DNA of 64,000 nt from a virus. The notes beneath the pieces were generated by a model that saw nothing but the letters and a program-made list of their open reading frames with translations, made no database searches and was not told the origin of the DNA. The stretch spans positions 64,001-128,000 of the IMG/VR virus record IMGVR_UViG_3300042373_001362. One strand, written 5' to 3'. Positions 45,521 through 64,000 of the stretch are shown one piece after another; the first letter of the stretch is position 1, and each line of letters begins with the position of its first letter. A program made the position numbers and the translations under genes.

Positions 45521-45724
45521 TTAGAAGTTGGCTCGGGGGACTTGTGCGCCACACGCATACTCGGCAACACGACCCCACGGACGGCAGTCACAGTAGACAC
45601 AACGGTCAAACTGAGGGTCAAAGTAGTGAGTGTTGTAGTTTTCCGACTTTTCTGCGTCCGACCCCGAAAAAGGGACAGGGGCATTGACGGTAGTAGGGGC
45701 AAGGATTTCGCTGTTTGTTTCCAT
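45521..45724 (-). CDS. Leaderless microprotein (METNS..., CxxCxC)
   Basis: ATG 36 nt from the TTGTCGG motif at 45760. Confidence 0.75.
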   Translation of the reverse strand: METNSEILAPTTVNAPVPFSGSDAEKSENYNTHYFDPQFDRCVYCDCRPWGRVAEYACGAQVPRANF

Positions 45725-45839
45725 ACCTAAATCTTAGACAAACCCACCCATACCCGACAAGTTTCACTACGGGCAGGTAGTTGGGACTATGATGAGTTCA
45801 GATAAATCTATCCATACGGATAGGAAGGACACACGGAAA

Positions 45840-46865
45840 ATGGCACACGAACTAGAGTTTGACCGTAAGGGCTTGGCGAAAATGGCTTACGCTGACCGAG
45901 AAGTGCCGTGGCACAGGCTAGGAACGCCTATGAAGGGCTTACAGACGGCTGAGGCAATGCTGGCAGCAGCACAGGCTGACTATGACGTAGTTCTTGCCAA
46001 AGTTGCCGTAGTAGACGACGAAGGCAACTTCATCACCAACCCTGACGGGACTCCTGTGCTGGTGGACGACAGCCGTGCCACAGTCCGAGTGAACCCTGAC
46101 GGCTCATTTGACGGATTGTCCACAGTTGGGACAAGGTATGTAGTCCAACAGAACCGTGAGTGCCTTGAGTACGCCCTCGCCATTGTGGGTGCGTCTAAGG
46201 GTGACGCAGTTGTGGACACTTGTGGAGTTCTCCACGGTGGGCGTGAGTTCTTTTCATCTATTGACTTGGGTGGTCTAATCATTGACCCCAAGGGAGTGAA
46301 TGACAAGATTGAGCGTTACCTGCTTGTTCGCAATGGTCACGATGGCAAGACAGCGATTACTTTCGCAAACACAAGCATTCGTGCCGTTTGTAAAAATACC
46401 GTTATCGCTGGAATGAACAATGCTCAACGGGTATTCACGGCTCGCCATACAAGAAATGTGGAAACTGCTCTCGCAGAGGCTCAAAGCATTCTCAACATCT
46501 CAACCGAGTGGGCTAAGTCGTTCAGCGCAACAGCCGAGAAAATGTTGTCAATCCCGATGAGTTTGAGTTCAGCAAGAATGGACACGCTTATCGGTGCTCT
46601 CTATCCCGAAAAGCCCCAAGAAACCGACAGACAAAAGCGCAATAGGGACAACATAACTATGACCATTCGTGCTCTCTATCAGACAGAAAGAAACTCTGCT
46701 GGATACGGAGACAACGGCTGGTCTGCTTACAACGCTGTCGTGGAATACCTTGACCACTACCGAGACGGTGGAGTTACGGAACGGGCGATTGCGTCTATGG
46801 ACGCAAACTCATCAGTCACACACAAGAAGATAAAAGCCCAAGAAGTTATCTTGTCATTCGCTTGA
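45840..46865 (+). CDS. DUF932 / phage-plasmid TIGR03299-like protein
   Basis: PWHRLG, VG.RY..QN, T.G.L.GG..F, YLL..N.HDG, T.IR.VC.NT, RHT, W.AYNAV.EY.DH. Confidence 0.9.
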   Translation: MAHELEFDRKGLAKMAYADREVPWHRLGTPMKGLQTAEAMLAAAQADYDVVLAKVAVVDDEGNFITNPDGTPVLVDDSRATVRVNPDGSFDGLSTVGTRYVVQQNRECLEYALAIVGASKGDAVVDTCGVLHGGREFFSSIDLGGLIIDPKGVNDKIERYLLVRNGHDGKTAITFANTSIRAVCKNTVIAGMNNAQRVFTARHTRNVETALAEAQSILNISTEWAKSFSATAEKMLSIPMSLSSARMDTLIGALYPEKPQETDRQKRNRDNITMTIRALYQTERNSAGYGDNGWSAYNAVVEYLDHYRDGGVTERAIASMDANSSVTHKKIKAQEVILSFA

Positions 46866-46911
46866 CACACCCACGGGTTATCATTGTTGTACGGACTGAA
46901 GGGACGGAACA

Positions 46912-47397
46912 ATGGATTTCTTTGATGAAGAAGACGACGAAACGTTCGCAAGCCCCGAGGAGCTCGCTGTCTGGCTGAGCGAGTTTATGGCTCAAACATC
47001 AGACGCAGAAGTAATGTACCGAAACCACTTCTGTACTATGATTGCTAACCGTGTCTATGACGAGTTCGGACACGAAGGCCTGTGCGAACTGATGATAGCA
47101 ATGGACAAGAAGGCTGGCTGGATTTCGGACATCATCATTGAGAACAATGACCTCGATGAAATACTGTTCAAGAAGTACGGCGTGTATGACCACAACATTG
47201 TCTCAAAAGCTCGCAAAACAGAAGCCGTTCAGGAAATGAACACAAAGATTTGGAAGTTACGCCGTAAGTACGCCAAAGCAATAGTGGACGAGCTGATGGT
47301 AGCCCCGTCTGACCCCACCCCGATTGACCCACTGCTAGAAGAACAAGAGACGCAAAAGCCCACCGACAGCGACAACGGTGGGACTTCTACGGAGTAG
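46912..47397 (+). CDS. Hypothetical protein
   Basis: 161 aa. Confidence 0.65.
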   Translation: MDFFDEEDDETFASPEELAVWLSEFMAQTSDAEVMYRNHFCTMIANRVYDEFGHEGLCELMIAMDKKAGWISDIIIENNDLDEILFKKYGVYDHNIVSKARKTEAVQEMNTKIWKLRRKYAKAIVDELMVAPSDPTPIDPLLEEQETQKPTDSDNGGTSTE

Positions 47398-47442
47398 ACA
47401 ACGGGGGGCGTTGCCTGCTCAGATTTGTGAGGTTGCGACTAT

Positions 47443-47676
47443 TTAGTAGTCGTCATCATCACCCCAGCCGATACCAGCAAGGGCGTTAGCGTCAGCCCAG
47501 CCGTCAGTTTCGTACGGCTCCGTACTGTCATCACGGACAACGCAGTCGCAGTCATCTTCACATTCGCAGTCTTGCTCCCACTCACAAGCACCCTCGTGCT
47601 CAAACTCCAAGTCGCAATTTACGCAATACGACATAATGTAGGGGGCAGTTTCGGCAATTTCGCTGTTCATTTCCAT
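47443..47676 (-). CDS. Leaderless acidic Cys-rich microprotein
   Basis: ATG 36 nt from the motif at 47712. Confidence 0.75.
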   Translation of the reverse strand: MEMNSEIAETAPYIMSYCVNCDLEFEHEGACEWEQDCECEDDCDCVVRDDSTEPYETDGWADANALAGIGWGDDDDY

Positions 47677-47716
47677 ACACACAGATTAGCAAGACCCACC
47701 CCAGCCCGACAAGTTT

Positions 47717-63027: not shown

Positions 63028-63036
63028 GATAGAGAC

Positions 63037-63219
63037 ATGGAAACAGCACAAGCATTCATCATCGTCACTTGGTTCTTGGTCAAGTGTGCAGGACTCGCAA
63101 TCTTTGCAGTCGGCGCATACACCACTATCCAATGGATTAGGAAAAATGTCTCATTCTTCACTTACGAAGATGTAGACCCATCAGAAGACCCCGACTGGGT
63201 TCGGGAAAACTACGGATAA
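63037..63219 (+). CDS. Leaderless small membrane protein
   Basis: ATG at motif+36; one hydrophobic helix. Confidence 0.75.
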   Translation: METAQAFIIVTWFLVKCAGLAIFAVGAYTTIQWIRKNVSFFTYEDVDPSEDPDWVRENYG

Positions 63220-63667
63220 CAATCCGTAGACAGCGACAGCGAGAAAGTTCTTGCTCCCAGTTTGTCGCTGTACTGGTTGAGCAGAAAGAGAAAGAGTCAC
63301 TTTCGGGTGGCTCTTTCTCTATGTGGAGCCCCGGTTCTCCGGACAAAAAGAAAGAGCCCCAGCAATAAAGCTGAAGCTCCTCTTTCCTTGTGACTCACCA
63401 TTAGAGCTCTCAAGGAAGAGCTTATGTCTGGTCGTGAGCCAATCCAGCAAGGGGGACTTCCTTACCCGATAGTTGGTATCTGCCGATGTCCCTAACCCAA
63501 TCGAGCTAAGTACGGTTTCGTTCCTCAACAGCAGTGTCCCTGACTGATAGGTAAACATTACCAGCATTTCTCCAGCTTGTCAACTCAGATAGTCGTGGCC
63601 TCAATCTAGGCAACGGGGCTCATTTCCCGATTTGTCGGGTCAGGGGGGGTGGTGATAAATTGGTCTT

Positions 63668-63876
63668 GTGAGCGAGGCTCTTCGCCTCTCCCACACACAA
63701 CATAAGTGCATAGTCTCCCTTCTGGATAAGGCTCTTGTCACTGCGATATCCTCTCCACTCTCCGGAAGTGCGATGTTCCCTCCAGTCAGACAATCCGTCC
63801 TCCTCTGAATAGACCTCTCCTTATGGGGGTGACGACCTCGTGTGTGGGTGGGGCGAAGGGGCTCGCTCTTTCTTTT
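63668..63876 (+). ncRNA. Putative structured ncRNA 2 (~205 nt)
   Basis: Starts at motif 63632+36. The 5' GAGCGAGGCTCTTCGCCTCTCCCACACAC pairs with the 3' GTGTGTGGGTGGGGCGAAGGGGCTCGCTC, followed by a U-tract. Confidence 0.75.
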
Positions 63877-63909
63877 ACATAGGGGCAAGCCCCGTCTTGC
63901 CCCTATGTA

Positions 63910-63925
63910 TGTTTCACGTGAAACA
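63910..63925. promoter_or_regulatory. parS: parS centromere-like site
   Basis: Perfect TGTTTCACGTGAAACA. Confidence 0.85.
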
Positions 63926-63967
63926 TTGGACTTGTCGGTCAGGGGTGGGTGCGACTAAGGTGGGGGT

Positions 63968-64000
63968 ATGGAAACAGCAACAACATTGGAAACATCAGTC
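63968..64000 (+). CDS. Leaderless ORF (METATTLETSV...), 3' partial
   Basis: ATG at motif+36. Confidence 0.7.
   Translation, partial: METATTLETSV

What the first reader, a model, noticed from the sequence alone, without database searches (positions are those of the whole stretch)
45521..64000. 28 copies of one promoter drive an array of leaderless microgenes, with the start codon exactly 36 nt from the -35
Seen: TTGTCGG-N4-GGGTGGG-N6-TANNNT occurs 28 times (4 on -, 24 on +). In 20 copies the ATG/GTG of a credible ORF sits exactly 36 nt from the first T, i.e. 6 nt after the -10 (e.g. 50925, 51202, 51554, 52146, 52428, 52847, 53337, 58035, 59919, 61092, 63037, 63968); one more is at +37. Most have no SD, and the start falls at the predicted +1. 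The other copies feed short SD-containing leaders or two ncRNAs. Established: TANNNT -10 promoters and leaderless mRNAs are common in Actinobacteria. Inference: the 18-bp spacer with a conserved G-rich GGGTGGG box suggests a dedicated class of early promoter, possibly needing a phage factor (e.g. the encoded WhiB) or a host activator. Each gene is its own transcription unit, so the region reads as a library of self-contained expression cassettes. The rule also reveals ORFs missed by the track (50654-50806, 50925-51089, 52146-52325, 53337-53465).
Basis: partly seen in the sequence, partly recalled or inferred. Interest (0 to 1): 0.85.

Follow-up and report, generated by a model that had tools for sequence, protein, structure and literature searches.

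The report
Leaderless promoter-cassette array in lake phage
An uncultured 148-kb lake phage of Actinobacteria carries 47 near-identical copies of one host-type promoter. Most are placed so that the transcript should begin exactly on the start codon of a small gene. Related phages in lakes have swapped or lost genes exactly at these promoter copies.

Summary
The window holds 28 copies of TTGTCGG-N4-GGGTGGG-N6-TANNNT (4 on -, 24 on +; chance expectation 0). The complete 148,355-bp virus genome holds 47, all within one 31-kb region. In 31 of the 47 an ATG or GTG lies exactly 6 nt after the -10, and in 4 more 7 nt after. No other spacing is enriched.

The geometry matches mapped actinobacterial SigA promoters that give leaderless mRNAs. 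About 13 related phage contigs show the same sharp 6-nt rule. Orthologous genes either keep it or switch to a Shine-Dalgarno site.

- Most copies follow a long hairpin directly, giving terminator-promoter cassettes.
- Units hold 1-4 genes, not one each.
- The first 20 nt after the ATG are conserved at nucleotide level and unstructured.
- Lake metagenome contigs break inside promoter copies and continue in another copy of the same genome.
- Each related lineage has its own spacer box.

The closest known system is the PeSL promoter/stem-loop cassette of T4-type phages, so this is a leaderless actinophage variant. No RNA data were available, so the start sites are inferred. A role for WhiB is unsupported.

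The parts
45731..45760 (-). Promoter copy; ATG at +1 of ORF 45521-45724 (67 aa)
   Evidence: homologues in 7 related loci, aligned from residue 1
47683..47712 (-). Promoter copy; ATG at +1 of ORF 47443-47676 (77 aa)
   Evidence: the L012 orthologue keeps the geometry with a different spacer box
50535..50564 (-). Promoter copy with a 29-nt leader and an SD; drives the 171-aa ORF 49984-50499 and then the helicase 47717-49627
50813..50842 (-).
   Evidence: L013, 53% over 49 aa
50889..50918 (+). Promoter copy, divergent from the previous one; ATG at +1 of ORF 50925-51089 (54 aa), a 'missed' ORF
   Evidence: L013, 46% over 54 aa
51166..51195 (+). Promoter copy; ATG at +1 of ORF 51202-51510 (102 aa)
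   Evidence: hairpin of -26.5 kcal/mol upstream
51518..51547 (+). Promoter copy; ATG at +1 of ORF 51554-51751 (65 aa); a second gene, 51751-51927, follows in the unit
52110..52139 (+). Promoter copy; ATG at +1 of ORF 52146-52325 (59 aa), a 'missed' ORF
   Evidence: L025, L012, L065
52392..52421 (+). Promoter copy; ATG at +1 of ORF 52428-52745 (105 aa)
   Evidence: the hairpin abuts the -35
52811..52840 (+). Promoter copy; GTG at +1 of ORF 52847-53086 (79 aa)
53301..53330 (+). Promoter copy; ATG at +1 of ORF 53337-53465 (42 aa, a 'missed' ORF); followed by 53465-53818
   Evidence: (L012, 55% over 42 aa)
55012..55041 (+). Variant copy: the -10 is shifted by 1 nt (19-bp spacer); leadered
55603..55632 (+). 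Promoter copy; ATG at +1 of ORF 55639-55842 (67 aa)
56318..56347 (+). Promoter copy with a long (127-nt) leader before ORF 56481-56597
56643..56672 (+). Degenerate copy (box GGGTTGT, -10 GAGAAT); GTG at offset 36
57999..58028 (+). Promoter copy; ATG at +1 of ORF 58035-58256 (73 aa); followed by 58259-58657
58694..58723 (+). Promoter copy; ATG at +1 of ORF 58730-58930 (66 aa)
   Evidence: L012, 72%
59331..59360 (+). Promoter copy (box GGGTTGA); ATG at +1 of ORF 59367-59804 (145 aa)
59883..59912 (+). Promoter copy (box GGGGTGG); ATG at +1 of ORF 59919-60197 (92 aa)
   Evidence: joint in lake contigs at 59915
60418..60447 (+). Promoter copy with a 22-nt leader and SD AAAGGGGA before ORF 60476-60769
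61056..61085 (+). Promoter copy; ATG at +1 of ORF 61092-61304 (70 aa)
61396..61425 (+). Promoter copy; ATG at +1 of ORF 61432-61644 (70 aa)
   Evidence: a lake contig joins the upstream flank of copy 70620 to this copy
61997..62026 (+). Promoter copy driving structured RNA A
   Evidence: deletion variants join it to copies 72921 and 67822
62033..62246 (+). Non-coding RNA A, about 205 nt. A closing helix of about 30 bp starts 3 nt after the predicted +1 and ends at a U tract.
   Evidence: -89.8 kcal/mol, z = -2.5; no Rfam match
62274..62303 (+). Promoter copy; ATG at +1 of ORF 62310-62612 (100 aa)
62694..62723 (+). Promoter copy; ATG at +2 (7-nt gap) of ORF 62731-63027 (98 aa)
63001..63030 (+). 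Promoter copy; ATG at +1 of ORF 63037-63219 (60 aa)
   Evidence: a lake contig joins the upstream flank of copy 69278 here
63632..63661 (+). Promoter copy (box GGGGGGG) driving structured RNA B
63668..63882 (+). Non-coding RNA B, a paralogue of RNA A with the same architecture. The 46-aa GTG frame here has no homologues.
   Evidence: -87.9 kcal/mol, z = -5.6
63932..63961 (+). Promoter copy; ATG at +1 of ORF 63968-64270, which runs off the window (100 aa)
   Evidence: an 11-kb deletion variant joins it to copy 74962
58654..58693 (+). Representative upstream hairpin: a perfect stem of about 16 bp (structure) with loop CCCCGT, ending 3 nt before the -35. Likely terminator of the preceding unit.
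56278..56317 (+). Representative upstream hairpin (-31.2 kcal/mol) that abuts the A-T-TTGT of the next promoter
61356..61395 (+). Representative upstream hairpin (-26.6 kcal/mol) ending at the base before TTGTCGG

Best explanation
The region is a hyperplastic, probably early, gene array of a lytic-type myovirus of freshwater Actinobacteria. It is built from about 47 regulatory cassettes.

Each cassette has three parts:
1. A long perfect hairpin, which probably terminates the preceding unit. The U-rich A-T-TTGT that follows it is also the start of the next -35.
2. A strong promoter of the host primary-sigma (SigA) type: TTGTCG, an 18-bp spacer, TANNNT, and a 6-nt G-rich discriminator.
3. In about three quarters of copies, an ATG or GTG exactly at +1 or +2. 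The mRNA would then be leaderless and translated by 70S ribosomes binding its 5' AUG.

The 20 nt after the ATG are held A/C-rich and T-poor at the nucleotide level. This keeps the 5' end unstructured, as leaderless initiation requires. The remaining copies feed short SD leaders or two structured RNAs. Units contain 1-4 genes.

Because about 55 nt are shared among copies, the cassettes also act as crossover points. Genes are deleted, reordered and exchanged between related phages at these points.

The invariant GGGTGGG box in the spacer is under selection. It differs between related lineages, so it is most likely the site of a sequence-specific regulator that acts on the whole regulon. That regulator is unidentified, and it could be an activator or a shut-off repressor.

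Shown here: the sequence anatomy, the statistics, conservation in relatives, and breakpoints in natural populations.
For: - Copies: 47, all intergenic, all co-oriented with the downstream ORF, chance expectation 0.
- Consensus: it extends from A at -38 to about +17.
- Spacing: a gap of exactly 6 nt between -10 and ATG in 35 sites, against 7 at gap 7 and about 0.8 at other gaps. The same peak appears in about 13 related loci.
- Known geometry: TANNNT sits 7-12 bp upstream of mapped M. tuberculosis TSSs, with a purine at +1 flanked by a pyrimidine (PMC3898074). Leaderless SigA-like promoters have been predicted in mycobacteriophages (PMC4351075).
- Orthologues: in 25 of 44 cases they keep the -10/ATG geometry; the others carry an SD at the same distance.
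- Coding: 22 of 36 promoter-proximal ORFs have protein homologues in related loci, including all four 'missed' ones.
- The proteins are mostly non-paralogous yet share MET(T/N)A starts.
- Synonymous choice in codons 2-7 is skewed: ACA 51/59 against 41% genome-wide, AGC 11/16 against 15%, AAC 19/19 against 59%.
- The first 30 nt fold at -1.2 kcal/mol against -4.2 for internal windows, p = 1.5e-9. This fits start-codon accessibility as a determinant of leaderless translation (PMC8459731).
- Two RNAs have closing helices that begin at +3 of the predicted start.
- Hairpins: 60% of copies have an upstream hairpin of -15 kcal/mol or stronger, against 16% of controls, p = 6e-7. Of the 66 GCCCCG/CGGGGC hexamers in the genome, 59 lie in the array region.
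- No sigma region 2 and no T7-type RNA polymerase is encoded.
- Recombination: 12 of 24 listed loose ends of lake contigs fall in cassette cores, which make up 9.9% of the stretch (P = 7e-7). All 8 tested continuations map to the equivalent point of another copy. Copies share at most 23 exact nt, fewer than the assembler's 31-mers.
- Box: L012 keeps TTGTCGG, the spacing and the leaderless ATG but has GGTAAG in place of GGGTGGG in all copies. Seven lineage-specific boxes are seen.
Against: - No transcript data. No RNA run holds this DNA, so promoter activity, the exact +1 and termination are untested.
- The host is unknown, and so is its SigA consensus.
- The U tract after the hairpins is short (UUUGU).
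- About a quarter of the -10 hexamers read TAAGG at SD-like spacing. Translation from read-through polycistronic RNA therefore cannot be excluded.
- The contig evidence for recombination comes from assemblies at low depth (3-30x). Only the best-supported loose ends were listed.
- GGGTGGG is not depleted outside promoters, which gives no extra support for a dedicated reader.
Confidence: 0.75

Rival explanations
1. A dedicated promoter class that is inactive with host RNA polymerase alone. It would need a phage factor, such as one of the three phage WhiB proteins or another activator, that reads the GGGTGGG box.
For: The box is invariant (41-47 of 47 per position) between hypervariable flanks. 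It changes in all copies at once between lineages. The 18-bp spacer is one longer than optimal. Three WhiB genes and an HTH protein are encoded.
Against: The -35, -10, discriminator and spacing are already close to a strong SigA promoter. One WhiB gene lies inside the array, downstream of copy 70620, and so cannot start its own expression. From the Wbl literature (PMC13013590, seen only as a title and abstract, not read), Wbl proteins bind sigma region 4 and are not known as readers of a 7-bp G-rich site. A regulon-wide repressor fits the same data equally well.
Confidence: 0.2
2. The repeat is an RNA-level translation signal inside long polycistronic transcripts. TAAGGT would be a Shine-Dalgarno site 6-7 nt before the ATG, and the upstream boxes would be an enhancer or processing site. 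The genes would not be leaderless.
For: TAAGG or TAAG at SD-like spacing is present in 14 of 33 copies. Orthologues in other lineages carry a true SD (AAAGGG, AAGAGG) at the same distance.
Against: The invariant positions are T-12, A-11 and T-7, not the G residues. Many copies read TAATCT, TAAATT or TAAAAT, with no SD pairing. SD spacing is normally flexible, whereas this gap is fixed at 6. TTGTCG at an 18-bp distance has no role in an SD model. Two non-coding RNAs use the same element, and their terminal helices begin at the predicted +1.
Confidence: 0.06
3. Promoters for a phage-encoded or virion-delivered RNA polymerase or sigma factor rather than host SigA.
For: The high uniformity of the copies is reminiscent of phage-polymerase promoters. 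Two giant virion-region proteins of 3,963 and 3,490 aa exist. Other lineages of the family carry -35-less motifs of 11-16 nt repeated 35-47 times.
Against: There is no Pfam match to single-subunit RNA polymerase or to sigma region 2. The only sigma-r4-like hit is a short N-terminal HTH. The element has canonical -35/-10 anatomy. The control genomes for PF00940 did not ring either, so that negative result is weak.
Confidence: 0.05
4. The conserved core, or the adjacent hairpin, is primarily a site for a dedicated site-specific recombinase that moves gene cassettes, as in integrons. Promoter function would be secondary.
For: Breakpoints of natural variants coincide with the copies. The hairpins have variable stems and a fixed loop in both orientations, which loosely recalls structure-specific attC sites.
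Against: The breakpoints lie at the edges of the shared identity inside the promoter, as expected for ordinary homologous exchange, and not in the hairpin. No integrase was sought or seen in the array. Strict co-orientation with ORFs and the fixed ATG distance are explained only by expression.
Confidence: 0.08

Closest known systems
PeSLs (promoter-early stem-loop cassettes) of T4-type phages RB49/phi1, PST and nt-1 (Arbiol et al. 2010, PMC2839356; Comeau et al. 2014, PMC4122927)
   Same: Both are many repeated strong host-sigma promoters, each paired with a stable G/C-rich stem-loop that acts as terminator or attenuator. Both are concentrated in hyperplastic regions of small ORFans in a large myovirus. 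In both, indels and replacements between related phages have their crossover points in the repeat.
   Different: PeSLs end in a Shine-Dalgarno site plus start codon. Here 35 of 47 copies have no leader at all, and the start codon is at +1/+2. The host is an actinobacterium rather than a Gram-negative. The hairpin sits upstream of the -35 rather than mostly within the promoter. An invariant, lineage-specific spacer box is present. PeSL activity and mini-circles were shown experimentally; nothing has been tested here.
Predicted SigA-like promoters giving leaderless mRNAs in Cluster O mycobacteriophages (Cresawn et al. 2015, PMC4351075)
   Same: [quoted passage not shown]
   Different: There are only 8-9 promoters per genome, of which three are described as leaderless. 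They are not near-identical copies and are not associated with rearrangements. The Cluster O 17-bp dyad repeats are mostly separate from the promoters.
Leaderless transcriptome of Actinobacteria (M. tuberculosis TSS maps, PMC3898074; determinants of leaderless translation, PMC8459731)
   Same: TANNNT lies 7-12 bp upstream of the TSS, with a purine at +1. A 5' AUG, zero leader length and an accessible start codon determine translation. All of these features are met in sequence here.
   Different: Cellular leaderless promoters lack a conserved -35 and are not iterated as one sequence. Here the -35, the spacer box and the first 5-6 codons are conserved as well.
Host-takeover module of Bacillus phage SPO1 and the early promoter sets of T4 and T5
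   Same: Clusters of small early genes served by many strong host-sigma promoters.
   Different: Those genes are SD-led, with fewer promoters, no fixed promoter-to-ATG distance and no lineage-specific spacer box.

Membership tests
Actinobacterial primary-sigma (SigA/sigma-70 type) promoter | -10 hexamer TANNNT placed 6-7 nt upstream of the start site | tested here: met
   T-12, A-11 and T-7 are present in 47 of 49 TTGTCGG/box copies. The pattern required them, but only two copies fail it. The start site itself is inferred.
Actinobacterial primary-sigma (SigA/sigma-70 type) promoter | -35 element TTGnnn with a 16-19 bp spacer | tested here: met
   TTGTCG is invariant and the spacer is 18 bp (19 bp in one copy). 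(G)TTGT is conserved across the family.
Actinobacterial primary-sigma (SigA/sigma-70 type) promoter | Transcription by host SigA holoenzyme from the predicted +1 | not testable with these tools
   No RNA run holds the DNA and the host is unknown.
Leaderless mRNA gene | Transcript 5' end coincides with the A/G of the start codon | tested here: inconclusive
   Only the geometry could be tested: gap 6 occurs 35 times against about 0.8 for other gaps. The closing helices of the two RNAs begin at +3. No 5'-end data.
Leaderless mRNA gene | AUG/GUG start, no functional SD, accessible 5' end | tested here: met
   By and the rows, 28 ATG and 3 GTG lie at +1, and 4 more ATG at +2. Twelve of 33 have no SD-like 4-mer, and the rest have only TAAG(G) inside the -10. 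The first 30 nt fold at -1.2 kcal/mol against -4.2 for internal windows.
Leaderless mRNA gene | The downstream frame is a real gene | tested here: met
   22 of 36 ORFs have protein homologues in related loci, most aligned from residue 1-6. Coding scores are positive.
PeSL cassettes of T4-type phages | Repeated strong host-type promoter plus stem-loop in regions of small variable genes | tested here: met
   (the array proteins have no Pfam family)
PeSL cassettes of T4-type phages | Crossover points of indels and replacements between related phages lie in the repeat | tested here: met
   the mosaic with L012 has block ends near cassette borders
PeSL cassettes of T4-type phages | Shine-Dalgarno site and start codon at the 3' end of the cassette; T4-type phage of a Gram-negative host | tested here: not met
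   35 of 47 copies are leaderless. The phage carries three WhiB genes, and its TerL is nearest to Gordonia phages and psiM2. It is therefore an analogue, not a member.
Phage-polymerase or phage-sigma promoters | The genome encodes its own RNA polymerase or sigma factor | tested here: not met
   There is no PF00940 and no Sigma70_r2 match. The only r4-like hit is a short HTH. The PF00940 control did not ring, so that negative result is weak.

The most novel reading that the evidence does not exclude
The spacer box is a private address. Each lineage of this widespread family of lake phages keeps host-type -35 and -10 elements but places between them its own invariant 7-12-bp word (GGGTGGG, GGTAAG, CTTACAAGG, ACTACCGA, AATAACGGA and others). 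A co-evolving phage-encoded regulator reads this word, so the whole early regulon can be switched on or off as one and is orthogonal to co-infecting relatives. In addition, the -10 hexamer and an SD occupy the same 6 nt before the ATG, so orthologous genes flip between leaderless and SD-led expression by a few substitutions.
Probability: 0.3. Interest if true: 0.75.

Novelty: new variant of a known kind. Interest (0 to 1): 0.6.

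Why it matters
This would be the densest known set of near-identical leaderless expression units: 35 in 31 kb. 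It offers a natural library for studying what makes a leaderless mRNA efficient, including the -10 to AUG distance, the discriminator and the first codons. It also offers compact promoter parts for Actinobacteria.

It extends the PeSL idea, in which regulatory repeats serve as crossover points for gene shuffling, from T4-type phages of Gram-negative bacteria to an abundant family of uncultured freshwater actinophages. Evidence for this comes directly from natural populations.

The fixed distance rule improves annotation of small phage genes that gene callers miss. The lineage-specific spacer boxes point to an unidentified regulon-wide regulator.

Tried and rejected
- Megablast of 8 kb of the array against 50,697 phage records: no match.
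- RNA evidence: no RNA holder was listed for the stretch, so no TSS test was possible. Read laying could be used on DNA contigs only.
It misses two of the short ORFs and calls some doubtful - strand ORFs.
- Host identification through the ribonucleotide reductase found only two probably mis-binned phage contigs in MAGs. The host remains 'freshwater actinobacterium' on the strength of three WhiB genes and the lake samples.
- Exact-pattern scan of IMG/VR: only one near-identical 5-kb fragment (L010) and one probable chance hit (L011).
- Rfam at E <= 1 over 44,000-64,000: nothing credible for the two RNAs.
- Sigma and RNA-polymerase searches: no dedicated polymerase or sigma.
- GGGTGGG is not depleted outside promoters, with 20 seen against 11 expected. 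This is uninformative about a reader.
- A G-quadruplex reading of the box was rejected. There are too few G runs, and L012 replaces the box with GGTAAG.
- Paralogy as the cause of the shared N-termini was rejected. Only 3-5 of 36 proteins are paralogous.
- The 127-bp 'DTR' is an assembly overlap, so the injection end, and hence 'early' by position, cannot be inferred.
- Literature searches for TTGTCGG and for freshwater actinophage promoters found no prior description.

Full report
**What the DNA is.** The window is bases 64,001-128,000 of a single 148,355-bp IMG/VR virus record with 46.6% G+C. Its 127-bp terminal repeat is an assembly overlap. The genome encodes a tail sheath and a large terminase about 42% identical to those of Gordonia phages and psiM2. 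It also encodes a ribonucleotide reductase, a primase, a helicase, five tRNAs and two giant polyvalent proteins. Three WhiB genes mark it as an actinophage. All 24 public runs that hold the stretch are lake or freshwater metagenomes. The helicase inside the finding has 397 relatives in IMG/VR on contigs of up to 170 kb, so this is a large family of uncultured freshwater phages.

**Checking the observation.**
- The exact pattern occurs 20 times in the window, and 27 times with up to 2 mismatches, against 0 in shuffles.
- Listing every TTGTCGG with a GGGTGGG-like box gives exactly 28 copies in 45.7-64.0 kb, 4 on - and 24 on +, as reported.
- All example coordinates are right.
- The array continues beyond the window. 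There are 47 good copies between genome 109,760 and 141,013, and none of comparable quality elsewhere.
- Every copy is intergenic and points at the adjacent ORF.
It has A at -38, T, TTGTCGG, yyrG, GGGTGGG, six variable bases, TAAGGT and a G-rich discriminator. After that come ATG GAA ACA (ACA) GCG ACA.

**Start codons.**
- Of the 47 copies, 31 have ATG or GTG exactly 36 nt from the first T, which is 6 nt after the -10. Thirty of these open frames of 42-148 codons, and one opens only a 10-codon frame.
- Four copies have CATG, a 7-nt gap.
- About ten have 20-37-nt leaders with an SD.
- Two drive RNAs.
- In a test that ignores the box, gap 6 scores 35, gap 7 scores 7, and gaps 3, 4, 5, 8 and 9 average 0.8.
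- This is the geometry of mapped actinobacterial promoters: TANNNT 7-12 bp upstream of the TSS, with a purine at +1 after a pyrimidine (PMC3898074).
- An SD would not give so sharp a spacing. The invariant bases are T, A and T of the -10, not the G residues.

**Comparative support.**
- Local tblastn of the 36 promoter-proximal ORFs against 79 related loci finds homologues for 22.
- The 46-aa frame at 63668 has none. It overlaps a structured RNA.
- For homologues aligned from the N-terminus, 25 of 44 again have TANNNT or CATAAT, 6 nt, then ATG, with (G)TTGT at -35. The others carry AAAGGG- or AAGAGG-type SD sites at the same distance.
- About 13 related loci show the same gap-6 peak, 9-18 sites per 20 kb. 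Other lineages lack it and use SD sites.
- The leaderless arrangement is therefore a conserved trait of a sub-clade. Orthologues have switched between the two modes.

**Region after the ATG.**
- The proteins are mostly unrelated to one another, yet they begin MET(T/N)A.
- Synonymous codon use in codons 2-7 is far from the genome's. ACA accounts for 51 of 59 Thr codons (41% elsewhere), AGC for 11 of 16 Ser (15%), AAC for 19 of 19 Asn (59%) and GCG for 10 of 23 Ala (11%).
- ACAGC(G/A)A occurs in 21 of 37 copies, against a 4% background.
- Bases +4 to +21 are 48% A and 11% T. The first 30 nt are almost unstructured, at -1.2 against -4.2 kcal/mol, p = 1.5e-9.
- This is a nucleotide-level constraint. 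It fits start-codon accessibility as a determinant of leaderless initiation (PMC8459731). A more specific role for ACAGCGA is not excluded.

**Hairpins and unit structure.**
- In 60% of copies the 90 nt upstream hold a hairpin of -15 kcal/mol or stronger, against 16% of random windows (p = 6e-7).
- The stems are perfect and 10-19 bp long, and they differ from copy to copy. The loop is CCCCGT or its complement. The stem often ends 0-3 nt before TTGTCGG, so the A-T-TTGT is also a short U tract.
- Of 66 GCCCCG/CGGGGC hexamers in the genome, 59 lie in the array region. Other first-stage notes flagged the same hairpins. I found them independently beforehand.
- A crude gene call gives about 61 + strand genes for 43 + strand promoters. 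Units therefore hold 1-4 genes, with the later genes SD-led or overlapping. 'One gene, one unit' is only partly right.
- The two RNAs (62033-62246 and 63668-63882) are paralogous, about 205 nt long, and closed by a helix of about 30 bp. The helix begins 3 nt after the predicted +1 and ends at a U tract. This is indirect support for the start site. Rfam has no match.

**Which polymerase.** No sigma region 2 and no T7-type polymerase is found. The only sigma-r4-like hit is an N-terminal HTH in a 215-aa protein. With canonical -35/-10 anatomy, host SigA holoenzyme is the economical reading. One WhiB gene lies inside the array, behind copy 70620, so it cannot be needed to start the array.

**The spacer box.**
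- In G000 the box is invariant between variable flanks.
- In L012, whose helicase is 89% identical and whose array is collinear and mosaic with G000, orthologous promoters keep TTGTCGG, the spacing, TANNNT, the 6-nt gap, the ATG and ACAGCGA. All of them carry GTTG-GGTAAG in place of GGGTGGG.
- Other leaderless lineages each have their own conserved word next to the -10: CTTACAAGG, ACTACCGA, AATAACGGA, TAATAAGGA and ATAGCC.
- Neutral homogenisation would not leave hypervariable positions beside invariant ones, so the box is selected.
- Its lineage specificity suggests a co-evolving sequence-specific reader. I could not identify it, and it may be an activator or a regulon-wide repressor.

**Recombination at the copies.**
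- Contigs of four lake DNA runs were laid on 45,001-64,000. Twelve of the 24 listed loose ends and 5 of 12 joint ends fall in cassette cores, which make up 9.9% of the stretch (P = 7e-7 and 0.004).
- All eight continuations I tested map to the equivalent position of another copy in this genome.
- Some are deletions between copies: 63932 to 74962, 61997 to 72921, 61997 to 67822, and 53301 to about 70620.
- Others are backward joins: 65908 to 51554, 70620-upstream to 61396, 69278-upstream to 63001, and 64363-upstream to 63932. These imply reordering, duplication or circles.
- Two copies never share more than 23 exact bases, apart from two overlapping copies at 76934/77013. That is below the 31-mers of the assembler, so graph chimeras are unlikely.
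- Homology blocks between G000 and L012 also tend to end at cassette borders.

**Comparison with known systems.**
- The nearest described system is the PeSL of T4-type phages. PeSLs are repeated strong sigma-70 promoters with G/C-rich stem-loops in hyperplastic regions of ORFans. They have been shown to promote transcription, to terminate it and to mediate modular shuffling and mini-circles (PMC2839356, PMC4122927).
- The present array shares the architecture and the population signature. It differs in lacking SD sites, in the fixed promoter-to-ATG distance, in the position of the hairpin, in the spacer box and in the host phylum. It is an analogue, not a member.
- Leaderless SigA-like promoters have been predicted in Cluster O mycobacteriophages, but there are only a few per genome (PMC4351075).
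- I found no description of promoter arrays in freshwater whiB-encoding phages.

**Verdict.** The promoter/leaderless reading is well supported by sequence, statistics and comparison, but it has not been tested at the RNA level. The claim about single-gene units is overstated, and the WhiB idea is unsupported. The added findings are the terminator-promoter cassettes, the nucleotide-level downstream element, natural recombination at the copies and the lineage-specific boxes. Together they make this a leaderless actinophage variant of PeSL-type regulatory cassettes.

Noticed in passing
window 62033-62246 and 63668-63882 (+): Two paralogous RNAs of about 205 nt are driven by the array promoter. 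Each is closed by a helix of about 30 bp between its 5' and 3' ends, followed by a U tract, and they share internal motifs (GGATAAGGCTCT, GTCC..TCCTC). There is no Rfam match, and the function is unknown.
   Followed up: partly
window 50843-50858 and 63910-63925; genome 128743-128756 and 130457-130470: A perfect palindrome, TGTTTCACGTGAAACA, has a 14-bp core that occurs 3 times exactly and once with 1 mismatch, always inside the array. One copy lies between the divergent promoters at 50842/50889. Two lie just upstream of promoters of paralogous 100-aa genes. It is a candidate operator of a dimeric regulator.
   Followed up: partly
window 50566-64000 and on to genome ~137,000: Hairpins with unrelated perfect stems have a fixed CCCCG(T)/(A)CGGGG loop in either orientation. 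Of 66 GCCCCG/CGGGGC hexamers in the genome, 59 lie in the array region, most of them 15-45 nt upstream of a promoter. The AGCCCCG motif recurs in many related phages.
   Followed up: partly
genome 136,335-141,050 (L005/L006; beyond the window): The distal promoter copies share a conserved leader, C(C)AACTACTAGAA(A)GGAAC, before larger genes of 138-243 aa. A homologous leader (CCACTACTAGGAAAGGGG) precedes orthologues in SD-using relatives.
   Followed up: partly
L044, L020, L040, L061, L064, L081 (related loci): Other lineages of the family lack the leaderless promoters. Instead they carry 35-47 copies per 20 kb of lineage-specific 9-13-mers (ACTAGATAAGT, GGTAGATAAGT, GAGTAGATAAC, GGTGTAGGTAAGT). 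These are often inverted pairs around G/C hairpins and have no TTG at -35. Whether they are promoters of another type or operator arrays is not understood.
   Followed up: no
genome 55,483-67,374 and window 5034-15506: Two giant ORFs of 3,963 and 3,490 aa. The first carries an N-terminal prohead protease, a UvrD-type helicase, ArdC-N and a PolyVal metallopeptidase. The second carries an RNase T-type exonuclease.
   Followed up: no
window 30812-31459 (+): A 215-aa protein with an N-terminal sigma-r4/LuxR-type HTH (residues 15-57). It is a candidate transcription regulator outside the array.
   Followed up: partly
window 63968-64270; genome 128,800-129,096 and 129,944-130,252: Three paralogous leaderless genes of about 100 aa (39-62% identity). 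They are the only sizeable paralogue family among the promoter-proximal ORFs and are conserved in up to 11 related loci.
   Followed up: partly
window 49020-49055: Several lake contigs (run X5) break inside the helicase gene at 49022-49055 and continue in unrelated sequence. This suggests a variable insertion, such as an intein or homing element, or a divergent allele in other strains.
   Followed up: no
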